64,000 nt of DNA. Origin: an uncultured virus (IMG/VR IMGVR_UViG_3300011434_000001) (lineage: Duplodnaviria > Heunggongvirae > Uroviricota > Caudoviricetes). The stretch's first letter is position 1. Each line of letters starts with the position of its first letter. A program made the translations under genes and the position numbers. Shown here piece after piece: positions 3,296-37,749 of this stretch. The notes beneath the pieces were generated by a model. That model did not search any database. It saw only the letters and a list, made by a program, of their open reading frames with translations, and was not told where the DNA came from. The stretch lies in IMG/VR virus record IMGVR_UViG_3300011434_000001. One strand, given 5' to 3'.

Positions 3296-3453
3296 AGCTG
3301 GTCTTCGTAACCTTGAAGCAGAGGAAGTAAAAAGTCCACTGCGCGGGACCAGCAACGGTGCGCACCGGTTTCAGATGCCACGTGCCGGGTCGAATGTCGA
3401 GGATGTAAGCGGGTTTATGATTGTGAGTCGTTGCCATACATCAAACAGTGCGG

Positions 3454-3966
3454 TCAAATCGACCGAGATGTCACGAACGAAATGAAAAAATTCTTTTCGC
3501 CAGTTATCGGCACCGGAACTGGAAAAGACTGGCCCCGGTAGAAAATGATGATCTGTCCCTGATAAATTTTTAGGGAGGGCGGGGTCAGGGCCGGGAACAC
3601 CGTCTCATCTGCCCGGAACACTTCCAGTTTCGTGAGCGGCTGCCCATTGAATTGAAGCGTAGGCGATTCGAGCACAGACACCTCGGCAACCTTTGGGCGA
3701 TACACGAGGTAAGCCGGATCGCTCTCGTATCCGCCGACGTTCACCGCAGTCAGCCACGCAAAGTAGTGCGGCGGCATGTTCAGCGCGCCATGCGTGCCTT
3801 GAATGAGTTGCGGAAACGAATTGACCGGCATCCCAATCGTCGGCCCATAGTAGAGATAGTAGCCCGCGAGATCGGGCTCGGTGTTGGCCCGCCACGAGAA
3901 CGCGACGTTGTCGGCGTGGAGGATGTTTAAACAAGTCAGTAATATACTTACTATTAGTTTTTTCAT
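3454..3966 (-). CDS. Secreted FN3-like domain protein
   Basis: Signal peptide MKKLIVSILLTCLNILHA, then FSWRANTEPDLAGYYLYYG...TAVNVGGYES. Confidence 0.75.
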   Translation of the reverse strand: MKKLIVSILLTCLNILHADNVAFSWRANTEPDLAGYYLYYGPTIGMPVNSFPQLIQGTHGALNMPPHYFAWLTAVNVGGYESDPAYLVYRPKVAEVSVLESPTLQFNGQPLTKLEVFRADETVFPALTPPSLKIYQGQIIIFYRGQSFPVPVPITGEKNFFISFVTSRSI

Positions 3967-4025
3967 AAAAGGGTCGCGAGGCGTGCGGGCTGAACACCAG
4001 TTAGCCACAACTTTAATCGCCAGAA

Positions 4026-4163
4026 GCCTTTCACAAGGCGACGAACCTCGTTCCACAAAGTGGAGCTATTCAGCGTCCCCCTGAACAGCTACGGGGTTCA
4101 TCAGTGGCTTCCGAGGCCACGCCACCGGCGCGAGCCGGAGTGCTACATTTACACCATGACAAA
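4026..4163 (-). ncRNA. tRNA-like RNA with D- and T-arms and about 90 nt of structured insert
   Basis: D-arm-like TGGTGTAAATGTAGCAC, T-arm CGAGG-TTCGTCG-CCTTG, weak acceptor TTTGTCA/TGAAAGG, internal hairpins. Confidence 0.55.
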
Positions 4164-4164
4164 T

Positions 4165-4241
4165 TGGTTGCGGGAGCAGGATTTGAACCTACGACCTTCA
4201 CGTTATGAGCGTGCTGAGCTACCGGACTGCTCCATCCCGCA
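4165..4241 (-). tRNA. tRNA-Met(CAT), initiator-like scaffold with altered identity elements
   Basis: TGCGGGATGGAGCAGTCCGGTAGCTCAGCACGCTCATAACGTGAAGGTCGTAGGTTCAAATCCTGCTCCCGCAACCA: full cloverleaf, encoded CCA. Confidence 0.95.
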
Positions 4242-4247
4242 ATAAAT

Positions 4248-4349
4248 TGGCGGGCCGGGAAACACTCGGGACTCACGCGCGTGATTCCTCCGCTATTGCG
4301 TTTGATCTACTCAGCGGTTATGACCCGCCTTTCCTTCAAACTCCGGCCC
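4248..4349 (-). ncRNA. CCA-ending tRNA-like RNA (102 nt)
   Basis: Perfect 7-bp acceptor GGGCCGG/CCGGCCC plus G-CCA; internal stem ending in GCGG-GTCATAA-CCGC; no canonical D or T arm. Confidence 0.65.
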
Positions 4350-4370
4350 ATTAAATTTTCAAAGATCAAA

Positions 4371-4469
4371 AGACCGGGGAGGATTTTACCTCCGCCCCCC
4401 CCCCCGCGCCGCGCTACCTCATGAAACGAGTCCGCTCTGCCCGAGTGCTCTGACTTAAGCTACCGGCCA
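4371..4469 (-). ncRNA. tRNA-like RNA with extended anticodon arm
   Basis: GGCCGG/CCGGTC acceptor, D-arm TAGCTTAAGTCAGAGCA, T-arm GGAGG-TAAAAT-CCTCC, about 50-nt middle region, no encoded CCA. Confidence 0.6.
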
Positions 4470-4474
4470 AAAAT

Positions 4475-4542
4475 TGGTGGACGCTATCGTGGCCCTGACG
4501 CCGTGCTCAACGGGGGCGCATCCACTCGCGCAGATATCGCCC
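4475..4542 (-). ncRNA. Short CCA-ending structured RNA (68 nt)
   Basis: GGGCGATATC pairs with GATAGCGTCC (one mismatch, one G-U), followed by ACCA and an AT-rich spacer. Confidence 0.5.
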
Positions 4543-4618
4543 ACTAATTTTGCGGGGACTTCCCCGCTCTGCCGCTCGCCCGTTTCTGGACCTACCCGGC
4601 CTAGTGCCGAGTGTGCTT

Positions 4619-4648
4619 AACCTACACTATCGAGCAATCACTTGTCAA
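4619..4648 (-). promoter_or_regulatory. Sigma70-like promoter for the RNA array
   Basis: TTGACA-N18-TAGGTT pointing into the ORF-poor array. Confidence 0.6.
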
Positions 4649-4749
4649 GTCCCTCTTATCGAATGGTGCCCTTCACCACTCTAAGCTACCAAACTGTGCA
4701 GCCCCCGGAGAAAAAATACCACAACTTTCTGACGGGGGCCGCACAATTT

Positions 4750-5145
4750 TTAGTTGTTCTGGCTGGGGTTGTTCACGTGGCCGGGCGGAACGAATTGAGT
4801 GCCGCCACCTGTGCTAGTGCCACCATTGGCAGTTGCAGCGGCATTACTCGTGCCCGAGACGGAAGTGGAATTCCGCGAAGGACGAAGCAGTGCAGCGCCG
4901 CCAGCGATCCCGCCCGCTTGCGCGACGGCAGGGACGAACCCGGGGCCATGCGCGGCGGAGAGGACTTGGAGGTCTTCGACGTTCTTCGCACCGTTGGCTG
5001 GCGCGGCGATGAGCGTGGTAGACGACGGCGAAAAGACTCCACGGGCAGTGGCCCGATAAATCTTCACGTCACCGATCTGGCCCGACTCACGAACCGAGGT
5101 GCAGCCAACAAGAGCGAGAGCGAGAAGTATACAGTATGATTTCAT
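4750..5145 (-). CDS. Putative lipoprotein
   Basis: MKSYCILLALALVGC lipobox, low-complexity C-terminus. Confidence 0.7.
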   Translation of the reverse strand: MKSYCILLALALVGCTSVRESGQIGDVKIYRATARGVFSPSSTTLIAAPANGAKNVEDLQVLSAAHGPGFVPAVAQAGGIAGGAALLRPSRNSTSVSGTSNAAATANGGTSTGGGTQFVPPGHVNNPSQNN

Positions 5146-5178
5146 GTTTTTGCTTTTGTTGTTGTTTGTTGGGAGGTG

Positions 5179-5553
5179 TTAGCAGGAAATATATTCCGAG
5201 AGGCGCGCGGAGTAGTGCGGCTTGCGCGCATTCGCACGAGTAGTTCGCACCACGGTGCCATGGCCAGACCGGAGATCAGTCTTGATGTCGAAAACCAGAT
5301 CGGTGTCAGCATCCAATGGTTCCCGGACGACCACTCGTTCGATGGAATCGGACGGCTTCAAATATTGCGCGCTGCCGACCTCGACGATGTTGGTCCACGT
5401 CACATCGATGCCGCCACGGATCGGCAGGGCATCATGCTTCGCGTGCTCGCGGGCGGTCGGCGCATAGGTCAGTTGAATGTGCTTCTGCTTTGACAGTTGC
5501 AACAGGTCCTCGGGGAAGAAGATATCACGATGGTAGAGATGATTTGGTTTCAC
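5179..5553 (-). CDS. Hypothetical protein
   Basis: 124-aa ORF with its own promoter TTGTCC-N17-TATGGT (5590-5618). Confidence 0.7.
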   Translation of the reverse strand: MKPNHLYHRDIFFPEDLLQLSKQKHIQLTYAPTAREHAKHDALPIRGGIDVTWTNIVEVGSAQYLKPSDSIERVVVREPLDADTDLVFDIKTDLRSGHGTVVRTTRANARKPHYSARLSEYISC

Positions 5554-10486: not shown

Positions 10487-10912
10487 ATGATTATGACACC
10501 AAAAGATGAAATGCCGCGCACTGCGGTCCAGCAATTGGAGGAACAGACGCGACGCAACGAATCAGAGCGGTTGCGTGCTGACTTGGAAGCGCGCGTGAAG
10601 ATCGATCAAGAACGACTGAAGCCCGGCCCGGGTCTGATCGTGAGTGAGGAAGACGCGAAGGCGATGGGCATGCTGATCAACTCTGCGCCGCCACCTGCCT
10701 CGACTACCACACGAGTATGGGTGCGCTCTGGCCCGCCGTATGATGAAGTGGGCCGATTGAAGTGGACACTCAAGTCACAGCTTGAACAACTGCGCGCGCT
10801 GAAGGGCCACTTCATAAACGAAGACGCCCGGCACATTGCGCTGGCTATCACTCATCTGGAGGATTCGCTTTTCCGTTTGAACTCCATCGTGGTTGTCGAG
10901 CACGGCTGCTGA
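10487..10912 (+). CDS. Hypothetical protein with C-terminal Acb2/Tad1-like helical motif
   Basis: ARHIALAITHLEDSLFRLN. Confidence 0.5.
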   Translation: MIMTPKDEMPRTAVQQLEEQTRRNESERLRADLEARVKIDQERLKPGPGLIVSEEDAKAMGMLINSAPPPASTTTRVWVRSGPPYDEVGRLKWTLKSQLEQLRALKGHFINEDARHIALAITHLEDSLFRLNSIVVVEHGC

Positions 10913-19725: not shown

Positions 19726-20019
19726 ATGCAGAATATGATCGGCGGCGAAGTTAAGCAGGTGAGCAAGATCGAGTTTTGGGGTTTGTTCAGCCCCGAGGCG
19801 CAGGACCAACTCGCCCGCAAAGCCGCTGAAGAAGGCATCACCGGGTTTGTCTGCTATGAGTGTCTTCAAATGGATTCATCGCACTTCGGCAAGCGCGCTG
19901 CGGTTACATTTGGCCCGGCGTGCTCCGCGCGATCCGAAAACGAGGTGCTCGAAATCTTTCCGAGGCTCGGCTCGTTACCATCTAATTTCCAGTATCCAAC
20001 TCAATATTGCCTAATATGA
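19726..20019 (+). CDS. Hypothetical protein
   Basis: ATG immediately after TTGACA-N17-GCACATTGTAGT. Confidence 0.6.
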   Translation: MQNMIGGEVKQVSKIEFWGLFSPEAQDQLARKAAEEGITGFVCYECLQMDSSHFGKRAAVTFGPACSARSENEVLEIFPRLGSLPSNFQYPTQYCLI

Positions 20020-20914
20020 TCCCATCCTATCCTAGCATCTACGCACTTGGTCATCGCTTCATCGCGGATTTATTTTCCGGCGCAGTGATCATCGAAGAAA
20101 AAGTTGACGGCTCGCAGTTCTCATTTGGCCTGTTCGATGGCCAGCTTGAGTTTCGCTCCAAGGGCCAGCAAATTCACGCCGGTGGTCCCGAGAAGATGTT
20201 CAACAATGCCATCACCGCAGTGCAAATCATGCATCAATCACATGGCCTGATCCCGGGATGGACCTACCGTGCCGAGTATCTCAGCAAGCCCAAGCACAAC
20301 TGTTTGGCGTATGGCCGCACCCCGCGCAACTTCCTCGTGCTGTTCGACGTGATGATCAGTGAGGGCGAGCACTATCTCGACCCAGCCACGAAGCAAACTG
20401 AGGCGGAGCGCCTAGGGATGGACTGCACGCCCTGCTTCTACTCTGGCGCAGGTTCCGAAGTTGAGGTTTCGCAACTCGATGTATTTTTCGGGCGCGAAAG
20501 TTTTCTCGGTGGTTGTAAGATCGAAGGCGTCGTGGTGAAGAACTACGACAAGTTTGGCCCGGACAAGCACATCCTCGTCGGCAAATTTGTGAGCCCGGCT
20601 TTCAAAGAGAAGCACGTCGGCGAGTGGAAGAAATCCAATCCAACGAAGGCGGACATCGAAGAACGCCTCATTGCCGAACTCACCTCAGAGGCGCGCTGGC
20701 GCAAGGCCATTCAACACCTGACAGAACGCGCGCTGATCAATGGCACGCGCAGGACATTGGCCCAATCATGAAGGAAGCGGCAGCCGATATTCTGAAAGAG
20801 GAAGCGGACTATATCAAGGACGAATTGTTCAAACACTTTGCATCGAAGATAGTGCGCGGTGCGACGGCTGGGATTCCGGCGTTCTACAAAAAAGAGATTG
20901 GCATCCTGCAATGA
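20016..20914 (+). pseudogene. RNA ligase-like nucleotidyltransferase with a frameshift near 20747 (real or sequencing error)
   Basis: EEKVDGSQF (motif I KxDG), LFDV, EGVVVK, GKFVSPAFKE; C-terminus QDIGPIMKE...DILKEE continues in another frame. Confidence 0.8.
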
Positions 20915-32393: not shown

Positions 32394-34601
32394 ATGTCGT
32401 TCTACGCAGTTGATAACGGCTTCGTTCTGACGCAATCGGTGGTTCCATACAACCCTTGGGAGTTCTCACCTTCTCCCGAGCAGTCCGCGCAGATCACAGC
32501 CCAAATACGCCACGACAAGGACAGTCGTCAATTGTTCTACCGGAACTTTAACACGAAATGGAATTTCTACACTCCGCTGGAGGGATGCAATCCCAACCAA
32601 CGGATTTCTAAAGAGGATAACCCGCCTCGCTTCAGTCACGGCATCGCGCTCGACTTCGACGTAAAAATTGCAATCGAGTATGTGCGTCAGCAAATAGAAC
32701 AGATGGTCATCAAGCCATCGTGGATCGAAACATCTCTCGGCGGCAAGGTCCGCCTCGTTTGGTTGTTCGAGCAGAAGCTACTGATCGACACCTGTGACTT
32801 CTACGAATATTTTCAGCGGGCTGCCGCAAAGTGGTTGAAAGCCGAACTGCTGCCCGGGCTCGACGAGGGCGCGCTCACTGAGGCGTCGCGTCTGCTATGC
32901 AACGGCGCAGTTTGGGAGAGCACCGGGGCCGGGCCGATCCCGCACGAGAAGCTTCAAGCCTTTTTCGTCAAGACGGCGGGCTCGTTCCGATTCAAATCTT
33001 CCGACACGGTCAAGATTCCGCTTGATGTGGTGGAAGCAGGGCTCAGGAAAAAATTCGACAACTTCAACTGGCCGGTCAACTTCGCGGTGGACTCGCAGGG
33101 GCCTTCGTTTTGGATTCCCGCGTCTACGTCGCCGCTGTCCGCCATTGTGAAGGAAGAAGGCATGGTCACCTTCTCCGCGCACCGGGACAAAACCTTTTAC
33201 CCATGGGGTGACGAATCTCTGCTCGGCAAGGAATTCGTCCAAGCCTACACCGAGACCTCGATCTCCAAGGCGACCTCGAACATCTATTACGACAAGAAAA
33301 ACTACTGGCAGTGGATGGATACTTATTGGGATAGCGTTCCGCCTGCCGAGATGAACAACTATCTGGAAAACGACTGCGGCTTAAGCATGACGAAAGACAA
33401 AACCGGCAAATCCACACTGCGCTCCGCGCTGTCGCACATTCACAAGAAGAACCGCGTCATTGGTGGCGCGCCGTTCTGCTATCGTCCCTCCGGGCCGATC
33501 ATCTATCAGGGCAACCGCATCATCAACACCTATCGCAATCGCGCGATCAAGCCCGCGACCGGGACGCAGAAGATGGGACCGCACGGAAATTTTCCGTTCC
33601 TCTCGGCGCACTGGGAGACGCTGCTCATCACGCCGCTCCAGATGTGGTATTACCTCGCGTGGGGCAAGCATATGTATATGTGCGCCATCGATGAGGTGGC
33701 ACGCTCCGGCACTAACGTGTTCCTGTTGGGCGAAGCGGGAAAGGGCAAGACGATGACCGGGCGCGGCATATGGGGCAAGTTGATGGGCGGATGGGTGGAC
33801 GCGTCGCGATACCTTCTGGAGAACGCGCACTTCACCTCGGAGTTTCACGAGGTGCCACTGTGGTGCTCCGACGACGATTCCTCCACTGACAACCCAGCCG
33901 CGCAAGCACGCTTCCAATCTAGCTGGAAAAAAGTTGCAGCCAATCAGGAATTCCTCTACCATAAGAAATTCGAAGTGCCCGTGACCATCGTCCATCCCGT
34001 CAGAATTCATGGCTCTTACAATCTGGATCAAAGTTCGATCCGCATCGTCGGCCCCATGGATAACTCATCGAAAGACAAGTCCAACCTGCTTCGCTGCGCG
34101 CCGGGCCTGATGAAGCTTCCGCCCCGAGAAGAACTGGAGAAGATCATCGAGAACGAGTTGCCGTATTTTGGCCGCTGGCTTTATGACGTGGAAATCCCCG
34201 ACTTTGTCGAGCGCGATGTGCGCTTCGGATACAAGTCATACCACGACGAATCCCTGCTTGACTCCGCCCACCAGAGCAGCAAGTGCGGGCCGTTCAAAGA
34301 ACTGCTTCTGGAGTATTTGGAAACCTTTTTCAAGACGGAAACCGCTGCCACCCGTTGGCGCGGGACCGCGACTGCTCTGCTACGGTGTCTCCACAGTCAC
34401 CCATTCAACGAGCAGATCATGAGGTCCATGAAGCTTGAGCAGGTCACCCGGTATCTGGAGATGATCCAGCGCGAGGGCCTTGTCAAATGCACCTCGGAGA
34501 CCAACGAAATGAAATGCCGCGTGTGGGTGTTCGAACGCTTCGGCTCTCCGGCGACTCCGCCACAAACAATTCCACCGTTAACAAACCAACCACTAACATA
34601 G
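32394..34601 (+). CDS. Primase-helicase (PrimPol-like N-terminus, SF3-like helicase)
   Basis: ALDFD, ETSLGGKVRL, Walker A GEAGKGKT. Confidence 0.8.
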   Translation: MSFYAVDNGFVLTQSVVPYNPWEFSPSPEQSAQITAQIRHDKDSRQLFYRNFNTKWNFYTPLEGCNPNQRISKEDNPPRFSHGIALDFDVKIAIEYVRQQIEQMVIKPSWIETSLGGKVRLVWLFEQKLLIDTCDFYEYFQRAAAKWLKAELLPGLDEGALTEASRLLCNGAVWESTGAGPIPHEKLQAFFVKTAGSFRFKSSDTVKIPLDVVEAGLRKKFDNFNWPVNFAVDSQGPSFWIPASTSPLSAIVKEEGMVTFSAHRDKTFYPWGDESLLGKEFVQAYTETSISKATSNIYYDKKNYWQWMDTYWDSVPPAEMNNYLENDCGLSMTKDKTGKSTLRSALSHIHKKNRVIGGAPFCYRPSGPIIYQGNRIINTYRNRAIKPATGTQKMGPHGNFPFLSAHWETLLITPLQMWYYLAWGKHMYMCAIDEVARSGTNVFLLGEAGKGKTMTGRGIWGKLMGGWVDASRYLLENAHFTSEFHEVPLWCSDDDSSTDNPAAQARFQSSWKKVAANQEFLYHKKFEVPVTIVHPVRIHGSYNLDQSSIRIVGPMDNSSKDKSNLLRCAPGLMKLPPREELEKIIENELPYFGRWLYDVEIPDFVERDVRFGYKSYHDESLLDSAHQSSKCGPFKELLLEYLETFFKTETAATRWRGTATALLRCLHSHPFNEQIMRSMKLEQVTRYLEMIQREGLVKCTSETNEMKCRVWVFERFGSPATPPQTIPPLTNQPLT

Positions 34602-34603
34602 AA

Positions 34604-35374
34604 ATGCAACTTAGTTATAACAACTTAACGTTTACAAAACTGGCCCCGTATAGCTTCCCCACAGCGAACGAATCCCTGCTTCGCGGTTTGCCGAAAAAGC
34701 AACTCTCTGTCCAGCAGGAAGATGAACTCGCGGGCCGGATTCAAGCTGAGAAGCAGCAGGAAGGCACGGACCTGACCTCGATCAACGAATTGGCCATCTA
34801 CAACATGCGCGAGGCGTTCGCCTACACCATGGCGTGCTCCCGTGGTCATGGATTCGACCCGGGCACGATCTTCAGCATGTGCTGGAAGGCGCTGTGCTAC
34901 GCAGCGACCAATTTTCAGCCGGGCCGCATCCGGTTTCTCGCGTTCGCCAAGCCGTATCTTCGCAGCGAACTTTACAAGACTCATGATGAGTTGAAGGTGG
35001 TCCGTCACGCGGAATGTCAAACGCTGTCGCCCGATGTTATCCTGCAAAACGAATGTGCTGATGACCACAACGAGGCTGCCTGCCAGACGCGCGACTCGGA
35101 CACGTATCTCGAAGCCAAGGCGGATATCGTTGAGTCGGACATGGAAGGGATTATGTCCCGCGACGAGTGGAACGCCATGGTGCCGATCCTCCAAAGCCGC
35201 CTCAGTGAAAAAGAGCGCATGGTTCTGGAACTCAAATACCAGAGCGGATTCAATTTTCGCCAGATTGGCGACCTGCTGCGCGTTTCCCGGTCTGATACTC
35301 AGGCCACCCACACCCGGGCGATAAATAAAGTCCGTGGCGCTTTGAAGGGCAAGCGCGCACTGTTTAGTAGATGA
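34604..35374 (+). CDS. Phage sigma70-family factor
   Basis: Region 2-like ALCYAATNFQPGRIRFLAFAKPYLR; region 4 LSEKERMVLELKY...NFRQIGDLLRVSRS...HTRAINKVR. Confidence 0.85.
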   Translation: MQLSYNNLTFTKLAPYSFPTANESLLRGLPKKQLSVQQEDELAGRIQAEKQQEGTDLTSINELAIYNMREAFAYTMACSRGHGFDPGTIFSMCWKALCYAATNFQPGRIRFLAFAKPYLRSELYKTHDELKVVRHAECQTLSPDVILQNECADDHNEAACQTRDSDTYLEAKADIVESDMEGIMSRDEWNAMVPILQSRLSEKERMVLELKYQSGFNFRQIGDLLRVSRSDTQATHTRAINKVRGALKGKRALFSR

Positions 35375-35913: not shown

Positions 35914-36638
35914 ACAAAGTCATTCCAATCCAGAGTCGTGACCAAGTGACGCAGACGCAAGTCGGCACCGTGCTCAGCGCAATTGTAACCGTGCTCCCAT
36001 TGCTGAATCGGCATGAGGCGTTCAATAATCAGATGGACGAAGGCACCGTCGCGGTTGTCGAGGGAACCCTGATCAACGCGTGTGACCGGCTCAACAAAAT
36101 TCTGAACGATGACTCGCGCTGGGGCATCGAAGGGCAGTGTCGTCTGGAAAATCATCTCGCGAATTTCTACCACGAGCACACGAAAACACTTAAGCTTCAG
36201 CAGCAACAGATTTACGAACTCGCCAAACCGCATACCCGGCACAATCCGCAACTCGGGCGGTTGAATGATGGCACGTGGATCGCATTCCTCGGCGATATCG
36301 ATGATATCAACAATGCCATCGTCGGCGTGGGCGGATGCCCCGCACAGGCGCTTGAGGCGTTTGACGAGATGTTCAATGGACGTGTGCCCTCGCACTTGCA
36401 GGCTTGGATCGCAGTGCGCGAAGAAGCTTTACAAAACGGCTTACAGCCACCCACGAAAGACCAATATGACAAATCGCAAAACTTGGACGGAGCAGGAACT
36501 CACGGAACTGAAGAAATTGAAAACGGCGGGCCTAACGGCTCGCCAGATCGCGGAGAAGCTGGGCCGGACCACGAAAGCGGTGGAGATCAAGCTGGACCAC
36601 CTCCCGCTGGACCAAAAGGTCCAGTTGTCCCTAGCTGA
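35910..36638 (+). CDS. Hypothetical protein
   Basis: Coupled ORF; its C-terminus overlaps the next gene. Confidence 0.65.
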   Translation: MNKVIPIQSRDQVTQTQVGTVLSAIVTVLPLLNRHEAFNNQMDEGTVAVVEGTLINACDRLNKILNDDSRWGIEGQCRLENHLANFYHEHTKTLKLQQQQIYELAKPHTRHNPQLGRLNDGTWIAFLGDIDDINNAIVGVGGCPAQALEAFDEMFNGRVPSHLQAWIAVREEALQNGLQPPTKDQYDKSQNLDGAGTHGTEEIENGGPNGSPDRGEAGPDHESGGDQAGPPPAGPKGPVVPS

Positions 36639-37749
36639 CGCTCTAGCTGACGCTCCAGTCCCTTCGGACGCGCCCGCCCGGGCAGAGTTCTGGCGCAAAC
36701 GGGCTGCCGAATTGGGGCGAGCCCTCGAAAAAGCGCAGGAGTCCCAAACCGCCGTGGAGATGCTCTGCGAGCACGTGCTGGACATGGCACCGCGTTCTTA
36801 TAACCCCGCCCCGGCTATCGTCAAAGACTGCGCGCTGAAGACTCCACATTCATCTCCCCAATCTGCTGTGCTGGCATTTTCTGATACGCACATTGGCGCG
36901 GTCGTGAAGCCCGACCAGACCCTCGGGATGGGGAACTACAACTTCGAAATTTTTCTCCGCCGTCTGCAACGGTTGGAGAGATCGGTGGGCTCGATCCTGA
37001 AGGATCACACCACCACGCAAATCTCTGAACTCGTCGTTCCGATTCTCGGCGATATGCTGGATGGCGCTTTGTCACATAGCGCGGAGTCGGGCCAGCCCAA
37101 CACGATCCTGACTCAGTTCTACGCGGGCGGTCACGCCATCGCGCAGTTCCTTCGCAGCTTGTCGGTGTTCGCGCCCTTGCGTTTATATGGTTGCGTTGGT
37201 AATCACACCCGCTGGCAGAATCAACACCGCATGCCCTCGAAAAATCGCAACAGCAATTACGACATGCTGCTCTATATGTTTGTCGAGGCGCTCACCCGGG
37301 ACATCCCCCGCATCAAGTGGACTCTGGACTGGCAGCCGTTCGCAGTGTTCGATGTGCAAGGCTACACCTTCTACTGCGGCCACGGCGATAACCTCCGAGG
37401 CGGCGACAAGGCGCTCGGCATCCCATCGCACTCCATGGGTCGCATGGTGAGCACCACCTCACAGCTTTTCACGCGCAATGGCAAGTCGGCCCCGGATTAT
37501 TACCTCGTTGGCCACCTCCATCGCCCCATCTCGATCCCGCACTCACGCGGCGAGGTGATTGTCAATGGCGCGTTCCCCGGGATCGACGGTTACGCATTGG
37601 GTGAGTATTTCAATGCCTCGCATCCTTGCCAGAAGTTCTGGCTGATGCATCCGAAATTTGGCCGCTCCGCAACGTATGATCTGCGGCTGGATCGTGGCGA
37701 TGAGACACCTCATTCTTACACCCTCCCCGAGGGATTCGAGTGTCAGTAA
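36466..37749 (+). CDS. Calcineurin-like metallophosphoesterase with N-terminal HTH
   Basis: WTEQE...ARQIAEKLGRT; SDTHIG, LGDMLDG, GNH, HGD, GHLH. Confidence 0.88.
   Translation: MTNRKTWTEQELTELKKLKTAGLTARQIAEKLGRTTKAVEIKLDHLPLDQKVQLSLADALADAPVPSDAPARAEFWRKRAAELGRALEKAQESQTAVEMLCEHVLDMAPRSYNPAPAIVKDCALKTPHSSPQSAVLAFSDTHIGAVVKPDQTLGMGNYNFEIFLRRLQRLERSVGSILKDHTTTQISELVVPILGDMLDGALSHSAESGQPNTILTQFYAGGHAIAQFLRSLSVFAPLRLYGCVGNHTRWQNQHRMPSKNRNSNYDMLLYMFVEALTRDIPRIKWTLDWQPFAVFDVQGYTFYCGHGDNLRGGDKALGIPSHSMGRMVSTTSQLFTRNGKSAPDYYLVGHLHRPISIPHSRGEVIVNGAFPGIDGYALGEYFNASHPCQKFWLMHPKFGRSATYDLRLDRGDETPHSYTLPEGFECQ

What the first reader, a model, noticed from the sequence alone, without database searches (positions are those of the whole stretch)
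4020..4650. Array of non-canonical tRNA-like RNAs around a single tRNA-Met
Seen: behind a TTGACA promoter, five GC-rich structured units lie head to tail on the minus strand, separated by short AT-rich spacers as in tRNA operons. Only one (4165-4241) is a normal cloverleaf. Two end in a terminal stem plus NCCA but lack D and T arms (4475-4542, 4248-4349). Two keep D and T arms but replace the anticodon arm with about 50 and about 90 nt of structured sequence (4371-4469, 4026-4163). Compensating stems and retained CCA ends argue against simple decay. Established: phage tRNAs can offset host tRNA-targeting defences. Inference: a processed set of tRNA mimics acting as decoys or inhibitors of anticodon nucleases or tRNA-modifying toxins, or tRNA scaffolds displaying functional RNA domains. 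This is my best candidate for an undescribed system.
Basis: partly seen in the sequence, partly recalled or inferred. Interest (0 to 1): 0.9.

Follow-up and report, generated by a model that had tools for sequence, protein, structure and literature searches.

The report
Phage operon of tRNA-like RNAs
Next to its one real tRNA gene, this uncultured phage carries several small RNAs that imitate parts of a tRNA; one belongs to a widespread, uncatalogued phage family that builds a tRNA-like CCA end with a knot-like fold, and what it does is unknown.

Summary
The observation largely holds. Window 4648-3971 (minus strand) is a non-coding operon behind TTGACA-N18-TAGGTT. It holds one initiator-like tRNA-Met (4241-4165), the only ARAGORN/Rfam hit, and four tRNA-derived units.

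Unit A (4542-4475) is the solid result. Its last 39 nt belong to a family found in 28 distinct copies from phage and metagenome contigs: a T-arm-like hairpin, then an H-type pseudoknot that assembles a 7-bp acceptor-stem mimic (G1-C72, G2-C71, G3.U70, then A73-CCA). This is the topology of plant-virus tRNA-like structures, with the acceptor sequence of a tmRNA carried by related phages. Pairs covary (98.7% of cells paired vs 82% in shuffles). No Rfam family matches, six full-text searches found no paper on it, and 1 of 8 hits in 185,579 reference genomes was genuine.

Unit B (4468-4372) keeps acceptor, D and T arms in three diverged phages, with a variable rod in place of the anticodon arm. 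Unit C (4349-4248) has a perfect stem, GCCA and a CAU loop, but no homologue. Unit E (4160-3971) has only a tRNA D arm and a partly conserved 3' end.

Function is untested. My best guess is stable acceptor-end mimics matured by host tRNA enzymes. A pure processing role is nearly as likely.

The parts
4619..4648 (-). Promoter-like site: TTGACA (4648-4643), 18-nt spacer, TAGGTT (4624-4619); transcription start expected near 4612
   Evidence: Read. The same TTGACA-N18-TAKGTT layout heads arrays in L103, L106 and L113, and TTGACA also heads those in L111, L112 and L116. The consensus scan tool did not call it.
4546..4612 (-). Leader with two GC-rich hairpins (CUCGGC-ACUAG-GCCGGG; GCGGGG-AAGU-CCCCGC), ending AAAAUUA
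   Evidence: Fold of 4546-4625: -29 kcal/mol, z -2.22. No comparative support. The hairpin GUGU-AGGUUAA-GCAC upstream overlaps the -10 element and is probably not transcribed whole.
4514..4542 (-). Unit A, hairpin HP1 (GGGCG...CGCCC)
   Evidence: MFE hairpin abutting the T-like hairpin. A hairpin in this position is found in 19 of 28 family members against 131 of 560 shuffles.
4501..4513 (-). Unit A, T-arm-like hairpin CCGU-UGAGC-ACGG
   Evidence: Helix 1 of alignment A6: all 4 pairs covary and 100% of cells are paired in 28 sequences.
4475..4500 (-). Unit A, H-type pseudoknot acceptor mimic plus ACCA: S1a CGU 4500-4498, L1 CA, S2a GGGC 4495-4492, L2 C, S1b ACG 4490-4488, L3 AUAGC, S2b GUCC 4482-4479, A73 4478, CCA 4477-4475
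   Evidence: Model R1 match at 43.2 bits, E 4.8e-8. S1 pair 3: UA 12, CG 10, UG 3, other 3. S2 pair 4: CG 21, UA 6, none unpaired.
4372..4468 (-). Unit B: tRNA-like core (acceptor GGCCGG/CCGGUC, D arm 4460-4447, T arm 4393-4378) with about 50 nt in place of the anticodon arm, including an 11-G run (4405-4395); no encoded CCA
   Evidence: Stem table for the window, G005 and G009. The G005 copy scores 28.6 bits on RF00005. G-run length differs in L001/L002 and in two DNA runs.
4350..4371 (-). Spacer UUUUGAUCUUUGAAAAUUUAAU containing the recurring motif (A/U)UCUUUGAAA
   Evidence: The same motif follows unit B in G009 and precedes units in L103, L106, L111 and L113; L112 has CUCUUUGACAA. Seen by eye and not tested statistically.
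4248..4349 (-). Unit C: 7-bp perfect stem GGGCCGG/CCGGCCC, G73, CCA; long arm ending in a 5-bp stem with the 7-nt loop GUCAUAA (4329-4313); a third hairpin 4288-4269
   Evidence: Fold -38.4 kcal/mol, z -2.06. Model R2 finds no credible homologue in 37 phage records (one 18.6-bit, 32-nt hit) and none in 91 other loci.
4165..4241 (-). tRNA-Met (CAU), initiator-like body, encoded CCA
   Evidence: ARAGORN; RF00005 60.8 bits. This is the only part with BLAST matches in GenBank phages and in related records.
3971..4160 (-). Unit E: D-arm hairpin GUGU-AAAUGUA-GCAC (4154-4140), several GC-rich hairpins, 3' end ...CCUCGCGACCC, 4 nt before the ATG (3966-3964) of the next gene
   Evidence: Fold of 3968-4163: -78.7 kcal/mol, z -2.64. 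The D-arm motif is that of ordinary phage tRNAs. The 3' end resembles ...CUUCGCGACCA of a large unit in G011. The structure is not resolved.

Best explanation
This is a phage tRNA-type operon. One promoter drives a head-to-tail row of one decoding tRNA (an initiator-like tRNA-Met) and several tRNA-derived RNAs that cannot decode. Each unit keeps the parts that the host's tRNA-maturation enzymes read: an acceptor-type helix, often a T-like hairpin, an encoded NCCA, and an AAUUU spacer. The transcript is therefore most likely cut into stable small RNAs by RNase P, RNase E and 3' exonucleases (inferred, not shown).

Unit A is the best understood. It consists of a hairpin, a T-arm-like hairpin, and a 3-bp plus 4-bp H-type pseudoknot. 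The pseudoknot stacks into a 7-bp acceptor mimic ending in ACCA, as in plant-virus tRNA-like structures. Its sequence matches the acceptor stem of the tmRNA carried by related phages (G1-C72, G2-C71, G3.U70, A73).

I think these RNAs most likely act in trans as acceptor-end mimics. They would be substrates or competitors for factors that read only that end of a tRNA: AlaRS, EF-Tu or SmpB for unit A, and CCA-end-modifying defence toxins in general. That would place them in the phage-host conflict over translation.

Shown here: the fold of unit A's 3' module, its spread among phage and metagenome contigs, its near-absence from bacterial reference genomes, and conservation of unit B's core.

Inferred: processing, stability, aminoacylation, and any trans function.
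For: Only tRNA-Met matches tRNA or any other Rfam model.

Unit A family: 19 viral contigs carry the 3' motif. Of 33 distinct versions collected from the viral, genome and metagenome scans, 24 sit in tRNA-type arrays with an A/T-rich trailer. Model R1 finds 28 distinct copies in 24 sources, some as second copies not anchored by my pattern.

On alignment A6, 98.7% of cells pair against 82.2% in shuffles (0 of 500 reach it). Controls with the 3' partner slid by 1-3 columns give 34-45%. All 4 T-stem pairs covary. S1 pair 3 is UA 12 / CG 10 / UG 3 / other 3. S2 pair 4 is CG 21 / UA 6 with none unpaired. S1 was not part of the model's structure.

The tmRNA of related phages G007 and G008 (RF00023, 53.3 bits) has the acceptor GGGCGCG/CGCGUCC-ACCA. 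This is the helix that the commonest unit A pseudoknot assembles.

The review table in PMC9976931 lists A73, G2-C71, G3.U70 and G4-C69 as the bacterial Ala identity set, and its text describes the TYMV 3' pseudoknot (passages).

The distribution looks like an accessory gene: R1 hits 1 of 29 polymerase-related records, yet the family occurs in contigs of 44-71% G+C.

Unit B's acceptor, D and T stems are kept in three phages, with changes such as C11-G24 to U-A.

The phage also encodes an RNA ligase (PF09414, 49.3 bits, window 20007-20768). In T4, an RNA ligase repairs cleaved tRNA (recalled).
Against: No experiment and no usable expression data exist. Contigs from two RNA libraries cover parts of the array at depth 2-2.5 and could be DNA carry-over.

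My search pattern fixed GGG/UCC, CG/CG, CGATA and ACCA. The invariance of G3.U70, A73 and loop 3 in A6 is therefore partly built in, and each pseudoknot stem has only one covarying pair.

The G4-C69 Ala determinant is not met (C-G or U-A).

A loose pseudoknot descriptor is not specific: 127 hits against about 100 in shuffles.

Unit A's own fold is not better than shuffles (z -0.21).

Unit C has no homologue and may be young or decaying. Unit E is unresolved.

Tandem tRNA-like units ending directly at a start codon fit a pure processing role equally well.
Confidence: 0.4

Rival explanations
1. The units are processing and stabilising signals only. The tRNA-like modules, the pseudoknot-CCA of unit A included, would exist so that RNase P and RNase E cut the polycistronic transcript at defined places and leave 3' ends protected by a tRNA-like cap. 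The products would have no function in trans. The last unit would release a nearly leaderless mRNA for the downstream secreted protein.
For: Every unit is followed by AAUUU-type spacers. Unit E ends ACCC-UUUU-AUG, and the G003 unit ends ACCA-AUUU-AUG, directly at the start codon of the homologous gene, with no Shine-Dalgarno sequence seen. A pseudoknot with a 3' RCCA is an RNase P substrate cut in loop 1 (PMC12710915, start of abstract in the listing). Earlier agents of this scan reached this reading for similar RNAs in other phages (these are leads, not evidence).
Against: Four or five different units in tandem are more than punctuation needs. Cleavage in loop 1 would destroy unit A. Yet its hairpin HP1 (19 of 28 against 23% of shuffles) and its T hairpin (28 of 28) are kept as one compact module. 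In L106 and L113 nothing but this module lies between the preceding tRNA-like unit and the pseudoknot, so there is no cargo to release.
Confidence: 0.3
2. The units are decaying duplicates of tRNA genes. Under this view units B, C and E are pseudogenes left by duplication and drift in a fast-evolving phage tRNA cluster and have no function of their own.
For: Array content differs in every relative examined. Related phages hold a continuum from canonical to degenerate tRNA-Met-like genes, for example in G011, G013 and G007. Unit C is confined to one lineage. The G-run in unit B varies in length among near-identical genomes. Unit E's D arm is an ordinary tRNA D arm.
Against: Unit A's family is conserved with covariation across very different phages. 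Unit B keeps three stems, with compensatory changes, across phages whose polymerases are only 56-60% identical to the window's. Unit C's 7-bp stem and GCCA are perfect and identical in three contigs, though those contigs are almost identical overall.
Confidence: 0.15
3. Unit E is the 5' untranslated leader of the downstream gene (3966-3454). It would be a cis-acting structure controlling that gene's translation, not a separate RNA.
For: Unit E ends 4 nt before the ATG, and no convincing terminator lies between them. Of the 2 terminator-like sites in 3400-5300, one lies within unit B and one within the downstream gene; shuffles give 2.0. The fold has z -2.64.
Against: No Rfam cis-regulatory family matches. 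In G003 the homologous gene is preceded by a 76-nt tRNA-like unit with ACCA instead. No covariation data exist.
Confidence: 0.1
4. The conserved 3' core of unit A is a DNA-level integration site (attP) that copies the 3' end of a host tmRNA or tRNA-Ala gene.
For: The core ends in GUCCACCA, like tmRNA genes, which are common integration targets. Serine recombinase-like genes lie upstream of the arrays in G005, G007 and G015; I recognised them only by reading the translated sequence.
Against: Only 1 of 8 pattern hits in 185,579 reference genomes is genuine, and it lies in a 1.9-kb phage-like tRNA array; the other 7 are coding-sequence chance hits. A real tmRNA end has no 15-nt insert between positions 68 and 69. 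Covarying stems point to selection on RNA.
Confidence: 0.02

Closest known systems
Plant-virus tRNA-like structures with a pseudoknotted acceptor arm (TYMV TLS-Val type)
   Same: Both have a 3'-terminal NCCA, an acceptor helix assembled from two short stems of an H-type pseudoknot stacked on a T-arm-like hairpin, and a chain that enters from the 5' side, so no free 5' end is needed in the acceptor (TYMV described in PMC9976931, passages).
   Different: Unit A is encoded by a DNA phage inside a tRNA operon, not at the 3' end of an RNA genome. It has no anticodon arm. Its acceptor sequence is of the Ala/tmRNA type, not Val/His/Tyr. No Rfam TLS family matches at E<=10.
tmRNA tRNA-like domain (including the one-piece tmRNA genes in related phages G007 and G008)
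   Same: The acceptor helix is the same (GGGCGCG/CGCGUCC, with G3.U70, A73 and CCA), and the position in the same variable tRNA region of related genomes is the same.
   Different: Unit A is 68 nt long and has no mRNA-like reading frame and no PK1-PK4. Its acceptor 5' strand lies between the two parts of the 3' strand. RF00023 and its clan do not match it.
T4 RNAC and RNAD (species 1 and 2 stable RNAs of the T4 tRNA region)
   Same: These are small non-tRNA RNAs transcribed from a phage tRNA cluster. [quoted passage not shown]
   Different: There is no sequence similarity to any GenBank phage outside the tRNA-Met: 114 records matched, none over more than about 12% of the query. That the T4 RNAs have tRNA-like ends is recalled, not checked here.
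RNase P substrates made of a pseudoknot plus 3' RCCA (engineered aptamer substrates; TYMV TLS cleavage)
   Same: The pseudoknot, a single-stranded loop 1 and a 3' ACCA are all present (PMC12710915, start of abstract in the listing).
   Different: Whether unit A is cut at all, and where, is untested. The base before the expected cut is A in 27 of 28 copies, not the U preferred at -1 (the preference is recalled).

Membership tests
tRNA (RF00005 / ARAGORN cloverleaf) | Score at or above the Rfam gathering threshold, or an ARAGORN call with an anticodon | tested here: not met
   Only 4165-4241 is called. Units A, B, C and E are not reported even at E<=10. The G005 homologue of unit B reaches 28.6 bits against a cut-off of 29.
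tmRNA (RF00023 and permuted forms in clan CL00001) | Ala-type acceptor end (G3.U70, A73, CCA) | tested here: met
   Unit A: G1-C72, G2-C71, G3.U70 and A73-CCA through the pseudoknot. The invariance is partly forced by my search pattern.
tmRNA (RF00023 and permuted forms in clan CL00001) | mRNA-like tag reading frame with pseudoknots; a match to an Rfam tmRNA model | tested here: not met
   Unit A is 68 nt long. There is no tmRNA-clan match in the window, and ARAGORN finds no tmRNA.
TYMV-type tRNA-like structure | 3' NCCA preceded by an acceptor arm built from an H-type pseudoknot stacked on a T-like hairpin | tested here: met
   Both stems and the T helix are supported on 28 sequences. There is one covarying pair per pseudoknot stem.
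TYMV-type tRNA-like structure | Location at the 3' end of a plus-strand RNA virus genome; anticodon-arm mimic matching the charged amino acid; match to an Rfam TLS model | tested here: not met
   This is a DNA phage operon. The hairpin HP1 loops are not conserved. No Rfam match.
Bacterial tRNA-Ala identity set (A73, G2-C71, G3.U70, G4-C69, G20; table in PMC9976931) | A73, G2-C71, G3.U70 | tested here: met
   28 of 28 rows of A6, with the pattern-bias caveat.
Bacterial tRNA-Ala identity set (A73, G2-C71, G3.U70, G4-C69, G20; table in PMC9976931) | G4-C69 | tested here: not met
   The pair is C-G in 21 rows and U-A in 6. The phage tmRNA of G007 also has C4-G69.
Bacterial tRNA-Ala identity set (A73, G2-C71, G3.U70, G4-C69, G20; table in PMC9976931) | Actual charging by AlaRS | not testable with these tools
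   This needs an aminoacylation assay.
RNase P pseudoknot substrate | Pseudoknot with a single-stranded loop 1 and a 3' RCCA | tested here: met
   Loop 1 is CA and the 3' end is ACCA in the window. Loop 1 ends in A in 27 of 28 copies.
RNase P pseudoknot substrate | Cleavage by RNase P | not testable with these tools
The RNA-library contigs cannot show ends.
T4 RNAC/RNAD-type stable RNAs | Non-tRNA RNA gene inside a phage tRNA cluster, co-oriented with the tRNA | tested here: met
   The positions and strand of the units relative to tRNA-Met.
T4 RNAC/RNAD-type stable RNAs | Sequence homology to the T4 genes | tested here: not met
   blastn against 50,697 GenBank phage records matches only the tRNA-Met segment.

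The most novel reading that the evidence does not exclude
Unit A represents a widespread, uncatalogued class of RNAs encoded by DNA phages. It would be the first tRNA-like structure of the plant-virus (pseudoknotted-acceptor) type found in bacteriophages. It would be charged with alanine through its G3.U70/A73 acceptor and would act as a minimal tmRNA/tRNA-Ala mimic. In that role it would interfere with trans-translation or soak up host defence toxins that attack tRNA acceptor ends. The neighbouring units B, C and E would be further specialised tRNA mimics of the same counter-defence operon.
Probability: 0.2. Interest if true: 0.9.

Novelty: new variant of a known kind. Interest (0 to 1): 0.68.

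Why it matters
Phage tRNA genes are now read mainly as codon-usage aids or as replacements for tRNAs destroyed by host defences. A conserved family of non-decoding RNAs in the same operons would add a third class: RNAs that keep only the end of a tRNA read by processing enzymes, synthetases, elongation and rescue factors, and several toxins.

The pseudoknot solution was known from plant RNA viruses. Finding it in DNA phages would be a striking case of convergence. It would also give a compact, testable RNA for several questions: RNase P specificity, minihelix aminoacylation in vivo, and phage interference with ribosome rescue.

On the practical side, such units are invisible to tRNAscan-type tools and to Rfam, so phage tRNA regions are under-annotated.

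Tried and rejected
Own genome: the window's assembly is not held. The nearest record, G001, is a fragment without the region.

Near-identical contigs L001 and L002 gave no variation except in the G-run.

blastn of the region found only the tRNA-Met, both against GenBank phages and against 28 related records.

A pattern built on unit B's 5' end returned mostly ordinary tRNAs. A second unit B pattern was mis-specified by me: it matched only G009, while its reversed control hit 3 records, so it says nothing. MAFFT could not align the three unit B copies, so I built no model for B.

Unit C: a first alignment had wrong coordinates and was redone. Model R2 found nothing credible. A single-sequence model is weak, so absence is not proven.

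The unit E motif scan returned 39 contigs. Nearly all are ordinary tRNAs sharing the D arm UGGUGUAANNGUAGCAC. The motif marks tRNA ancestry, not a new family.

The generic descriptors are not specific: stem plus NCCA and the pseudoknot descriptor.

Expression: 2 of 24 listed runs are RNA libraries holding about 0.2 of the sampled words. Laid out, they give four 151-nt contigs at depth 2-2.5 (4431-4578 and 4642-4792 in X23; 3900-3994 and 4052-4202 in X24). One of them lies largely upstream of the promoter. DNA carry-over cannot be excluded, and contigs show neither ends nor strand. This gives no verdict on transcription.

Rfam searches of 29 related loci found only tRNAs and the tmRNA.

Literature: six full-text searches found no paper describing phage pseudoknotted tRNA-like RNAs. 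AcrIIIA1 (PMC11662646, passages) uses fragments of host tRNA and tmRNA, not phage-encoded mimics.

I rejected an intron reading of the unit B inserts. They are 40-50 nt stem-loops with no group I features, and nothing suggests splicing.

I rejected a two-piece tmRNA reading of unit A. No coding piece follows it, and no permuted-tmRNA model matches.
Full report
WHAT IS THERE

The window is phage DNA, with PHROG hits to DNA polymerase, helicases, exonucleases and tail fibres. Between a small lipoprotein-like gene (5145-4750, minus) and a signal-peptide gene (3966-3454, minus) lie about 780 nt without a credible ORF.

ARAGORN finds one tRNA in the whole 64 kb, tRNA-Met(CAU) at 4165-4241 on the minus strand. 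Rfam finds the same and nothing else at gathering thresholds. At E<=10 on 3700-5000, 7 matches appear and only the tRNA is significant.

Reading the minus strand gives this order:
- TTGACA (4648-4643), an 18-nt spacer, TAGGTT (4624-4619)
- a leader with two GC hairpins
- unit A (4542-4475)
- unit B (4468-4372)
- a spacer containing UCUUUGAAA
- unit C (4349-4248)
- tRNA-Met (4241-4165)
- unit E (4160 to about 3971)

Units A, C and the tRNA each end in NCCA followed by AAUUU. The promoter scan tool calls no site, because the -10 is weak. Even so, the same TTGACA-N18-TAKGTT layout heads comparable arrays in L103, L106 and L113, and TTGACA also heads those in L111, L112 and L116.

IS IT MORE THAN CHANCE?

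Not on the single sequence. A 7-bp stem (G-U allowed) followed by NCCAWWT occurs 13 times in the window, against a mean of 7.1 in 200 shuffles. Folding z-scores are -0.21 (A), -1.65 (B), -2.06 (C), -1.34 (the true tRNA), -3.06 (E, 138 nt) and -3.45 (whole 651 nt). The question had to be settled by comparison.

RELATIVES

- Two IMG/VR contigs (L001, L002) are nearly identical. They differ only in the length of the G-run in unit B: 11 G in the window against 7 G followed by an A (L001), or 8 G (L002). Two DNA metagenome runs show the shorter form too.
- GenBank phages match only the tRNA-Met: 114 records, and none covers more than about 12% of the query.
- A DNA polymerase alignment (A2) retrieved 40 viral contigs. 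Of these, 29 have a polymerase 50-100% identical to the window's.
- tRNA genes were found in 5 of 7 and 13 of 21 of these records, usually a tRNA-Met. The flanks show that many carry other CCA-ended tRNA-like units beside it, a different set in almost every genome.
- G007 and G008 carry a one-piece tmRNA (RF00023, 53.3 bits) in this region.
- BLAST with the window's array finds only the tRNA-Met in these records, so the other units evolve fast at the sequence level.

UNIT A

Its 3' part (...CGUCAGGGCCACGAUAGCGUCCACCA) recurs in G029.

A 22-nt pattern found it in 19 viral contigs. A looser pattern gave two further results. It hit 8 times in 185,579 reference genomes, of which only one, a 1.9-kb phage-like tRNA array, is genuine; the other 7 are coding-sequence chance hits, close to my expectation of about 9. 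It also hit 34 times in metagenome contigs.

Of 33 distinct versions, 24 sit in tRNA-type arrays with an A/T-rich trailer and 9 are coding-sequence chance hits.

A covariance model (R1) found 50 matches at E<=1 in 75 sources. In 24 selected sources it found 28 distinct copies at E<=1e-4. These include second copies that my pattern had not anchored (in L106, L111, L112, L131).

The common architecture runs 5' to 3' as follows:
- a variable hairpin HP1
- a 4-5-bp hairpin, often with a T-loop-like 7-nt loop (UAGAAGU, UUCAAGU, UAAAAAU)
- S1a CGY
- L1 (N)A
- S2a GGGY
- L2, usually C
- S1b RCG
- L3 AUAGN
- S2b RUCC
- ACCA

S1 and S2 cross, which makes an H-type pseudoknot. Stacked, they give a quasi-continuous 7-bp helix. 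Its interrupted strand reads CGY|RUCC-ACCA, which corresponds to positions 66-72, 73 and CCA. Its continuous strand reads GGGY(C)RCG, which corresponds to positions 1-7.

On alignment A6:
- 98.7% of cells pair, against 82.2% in shuffles (0 of 500 reach it) and 34-45% when the 3' partners are slid by 1-3 columns.
- All four T-stem pairs covary, and 100% of their cells are paired.
- S1's third pair is UA 12, CG 10, UG 3, other 3. S1 was not in the model's structure.
- S2's fourth pair is CG 21, UA 6, with none unpaired.

HP1 abuts the T hairpin in 19 of 28 copies, against 131 of 560 shuffles.

Caveats. The pattern fixed GGG/UCC, CG/CG, CGATA and ACCA, so their invariance is partly built in. One row (the second copy in L111) is misaligned by one base. 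A loose structural descriptor alone is not specific (127 hits against about 100 in shuffles).

In the window the parts are HP1 4542-4514, T-like hairpin 4513-4501, pseudoknot 4500-4479 and ACCA 4478-4475. However, its 5' strand is also the 5' strand of HP1, and it is absent from the other family members.

WHAT UNIT A RESEMBLES

The topology is that of the pseudoknotted acceptor arm of plant-virus tRNA-like structures (TYMV; PMC9976931, passages).

The helix sequence in the commonest version, GGGC(C)GCG with CGC...GUCC-ACCA, equals the acceptor stem of the tmRNA of related phage G007 (GGGCGCG...CGCGUCCACCA).

It carries A73, G2-C71 and G3.U70 of the bacterial alanine identity set, but C-G or U-A instead of G4-C69 (table in PMC9976931). 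Alanine minihelices are known AlaRS substrates (Francklyn and Schimmel 1989; I saw this only as a reference in that review).

Unit A is 68 nt long with no tag reading frame, and no tmRNA or TLS model matches it. It is therefore a member of neither family.

Its distribution is patchy. Only 1 of 29 polymerase-related records has it, yet it occurs in contigs of 44-71% G+C.

UNIT B

Homologues exist in G005 (L014 1580-1689) and G009 (L090 1300-1385). All three keep the following:
- a 6-7-bp acceptor
- a 4-bp D stem (GCUU/GAGC, GCUC/GAGC, GUUU/AAAC)
- a 5-bp T stem with a UAAAAU / UGAAAAU / UGAAAAUA loop

The anticodon arm is replaced by an imperfect rod of 35-55 nt with no sequence conservation. 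In G009 it ends in a GCAA tetraloop.

The window's copy lacks an encoded CCA, and G005's has GCCA. The trailer UUGAUCUUUGAAA is shared with G009. The G005 copy scores 28.6 bits against the tRNA model (cut-off 29). G005 also has a second expanded tRNA-like gene (46 bits, with a 28-nt insert). Three sequences are too few for statistics, and I could not build a usable alignment.

UNIT C

Its features are a perfect 7-bp stem, G73 and CCA; a long arm ending in GGCGG-GUCAUAA-CCGCU, which is a 5-bp stem with a 7-nt loop that has U33-like and CAU positions like the neighbouring tRNA; and a third hairpin.

Model R2 finds no credible homologue in 37 phage records (one 32-nt, 18.6-bit hit) and none in 91 other loci. 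The unit is lineage-specific, so its status is open.

UNIT E

The hairpin at 4154-4140 is the D arm common to many ordinary phage tRNAs. I found no T arm.

The 3' end...CCUCGCGACCC, lies 4 nt before the ATG. It resembles ...CUUCGCGACCA, the end of a unit of about 300 nt in G011. In G011 and G013 that unit's 3' domain is closed by an 8-bp helix with one compensatory change, which I read by eye. The window has no equivalent 5' strand.

The 196-nt fold has z -2.64. The structure remains unresolved.

CONTEXT

The tRNA-Met looks derived from an initiator. It has A11-U24 and the CUCAUAA loop, but a U1-A72 pair and only two G/C pairs next to the loop (read from the alignment; the initiator hallmarks are recalled).

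Other genes in the window:
- an RNA ligase (PF09414, 49.3 bits, 20007-20768)
- a protein with sigma-70 region 4
- a protein with GcrA-like and metallophosphatase domains, the former pointing weakly to an alphaproteobacterial host

The region is held at 0.92 or more of sampled words in 22 DNA runs labelled freshwater sediment, groundwater or sediment metagenome.

HOW IT MOST LIKELY WORKS

The shared features are the substrate signals of bacterial tRNA maturation (established knowledge): an acceptor helix, T-like hairpins, NCCA and AU-rich spacers. I therefore infer that the transcript is cut into stable small RNAs.

What the products then do is not shown. I rank the options as follows:
1. Acceptor-end mimicry in trans (0.4). 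This is favoured by the compact, self-contained, tmRNA-like design of unit A and by its accessory-gene distribution.
2. Processing and stabilising signals only (0.3). This is favoured by the units that abut start codons and by the known RNase P cleavage of pseudoknot-RCCA substrates (PMC12710915, start of abstract).
3. Pseudogene decay for B, C and E (0.15).

An attP role is disfavoured.

EARLIER NOTES OF THIS SCAN

After I had derived the pseudoknot, a word search showed that other agents had described pseudoknot-CCA acceptor mimics in tRNA arrays of other phage genomes. They also found them absent from Rfam, also compared them with TYMV, and mostly favoured an RNase P processing role. These are unchecked AI notes, not independent evidence. 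They made me raise the weight of the processing rival. No stretch like unit A or unit C was on record.

NOVELTY

T4's RNAC and RNAD show that non-tRNA RNAs in phage tRNA clusters are an old and still unexplained observation (PMC3014915, passage). The pseudoknotted acceptor and the Ala/tmRNA-type helix in a DNA phage are, as far as six full-text searches and Rfam 15 show, not in print or catalogued. I file this as a new variant of a known kind (viral tRNA-like structures and tRNA-operon small RNAs).

Noticed in passing
L020 1311-1624 (record G007) and L016 (record G008): Related phages carry a one-piece tmRNA gene (RF00023, 53.3 bits) that ARAGORN misses. It is followed by an HNH-like ORF, another CCA-ended tRNA-like unit and two FN3-like secreted proteins. 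A serine-recombinase-like gene lies upstream.
   Followed up: partly
window 20007-20768 (+): RNA ligase family protein (PF09414, 49.3 bits against a cut-off of 27). In T4, RNA ligases repair tRNAs cut by host nucleases (recalled), so this fits a conflict over tRNA.
   Followed up: no
window 4395-4405: The 11-G homopolymer inside unit B is polymorphic. L001 has 7 G followed by an A, L002 has 8 G, and two DNA metagenome runs show a 4-base deletion plus C>T at 4395-4396.
   Followed up: partly
window 3964-3977; L015 about 1395-1420: The downstream signal-peptide gene starts 4-5 nt after the ACCC/ACCA end of the last tRNA-like unit, with no visible Shine-Dalgarno sequence, both here and in G003. 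tRNA-type processing would leave a nearly leaderless mRNA.
   Followed up: no
L103, L105, L106, L111, L113 (about 250-330 nt after the unit A motif): A strongly conserved element of about 70 nt, GUCGAGACGGGGUUUCGCGAAGUYGC...CCCGAAAGGACGCAUGGCCCCGCACCAGCUCGAC, recurs in arrays of different phages. No Rfam match in L103, L106, L111 or L113 (L105 was not scanned).
   Followed up: no
L039, L042, L043, L030, L031, L034 (unrelated IMG/VR contigs): These contigs hold tRNA-like genes with a canonical 5' end (GGCCGGTAGCTCAA...) but expanded, shortened or replaced anticodon regions. Non-canonical tRNA-like genes therefore seem common in uncultured phages.
   Followed up: no
L094 and L095 (records G013, G011), downstream of the tRNAs: Structured RNAs of about 200 nt (G013) and 300 nt (G011) end in AACCA/GACCA plus AAUUUU. 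Their 3' domain is closed by an 8-bp helix (GCAGAGUG/CACUCUGC against GCGGAGUG/CACUUCGC) with one compensatory change. No Rfam match.
   Followed up: partly
window 36265-37746 (+) and 34487-35371 (+): One protein combines a GcrA-like domain with a metallophosphatase domain (both hits weak; the GcrA hit, 24.1 bits, is below Pfam's 26.9 cut-off). Another carries sigma-70 region 4. The GcrA hit hints at an alphaproteobacterial host.
   Followed up: no
window 10487-10909 (+): Weak hit to the Acb2/Tad1 hairpin domain (22.8 bits, below the cut-off of 27). This could be an anti-CBASS/Thoeris sponge candidate.
   Followed up: no
window 4690-4750 (-): A long hairpin (GUGCGGCCCCCG...CGGGGGCUGCAC) lies just after the stop codon of the upstream gene and before the TTGACA. 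It is probably that gene's terminator, and it is identical in L001 and L002.
   Followed up: no
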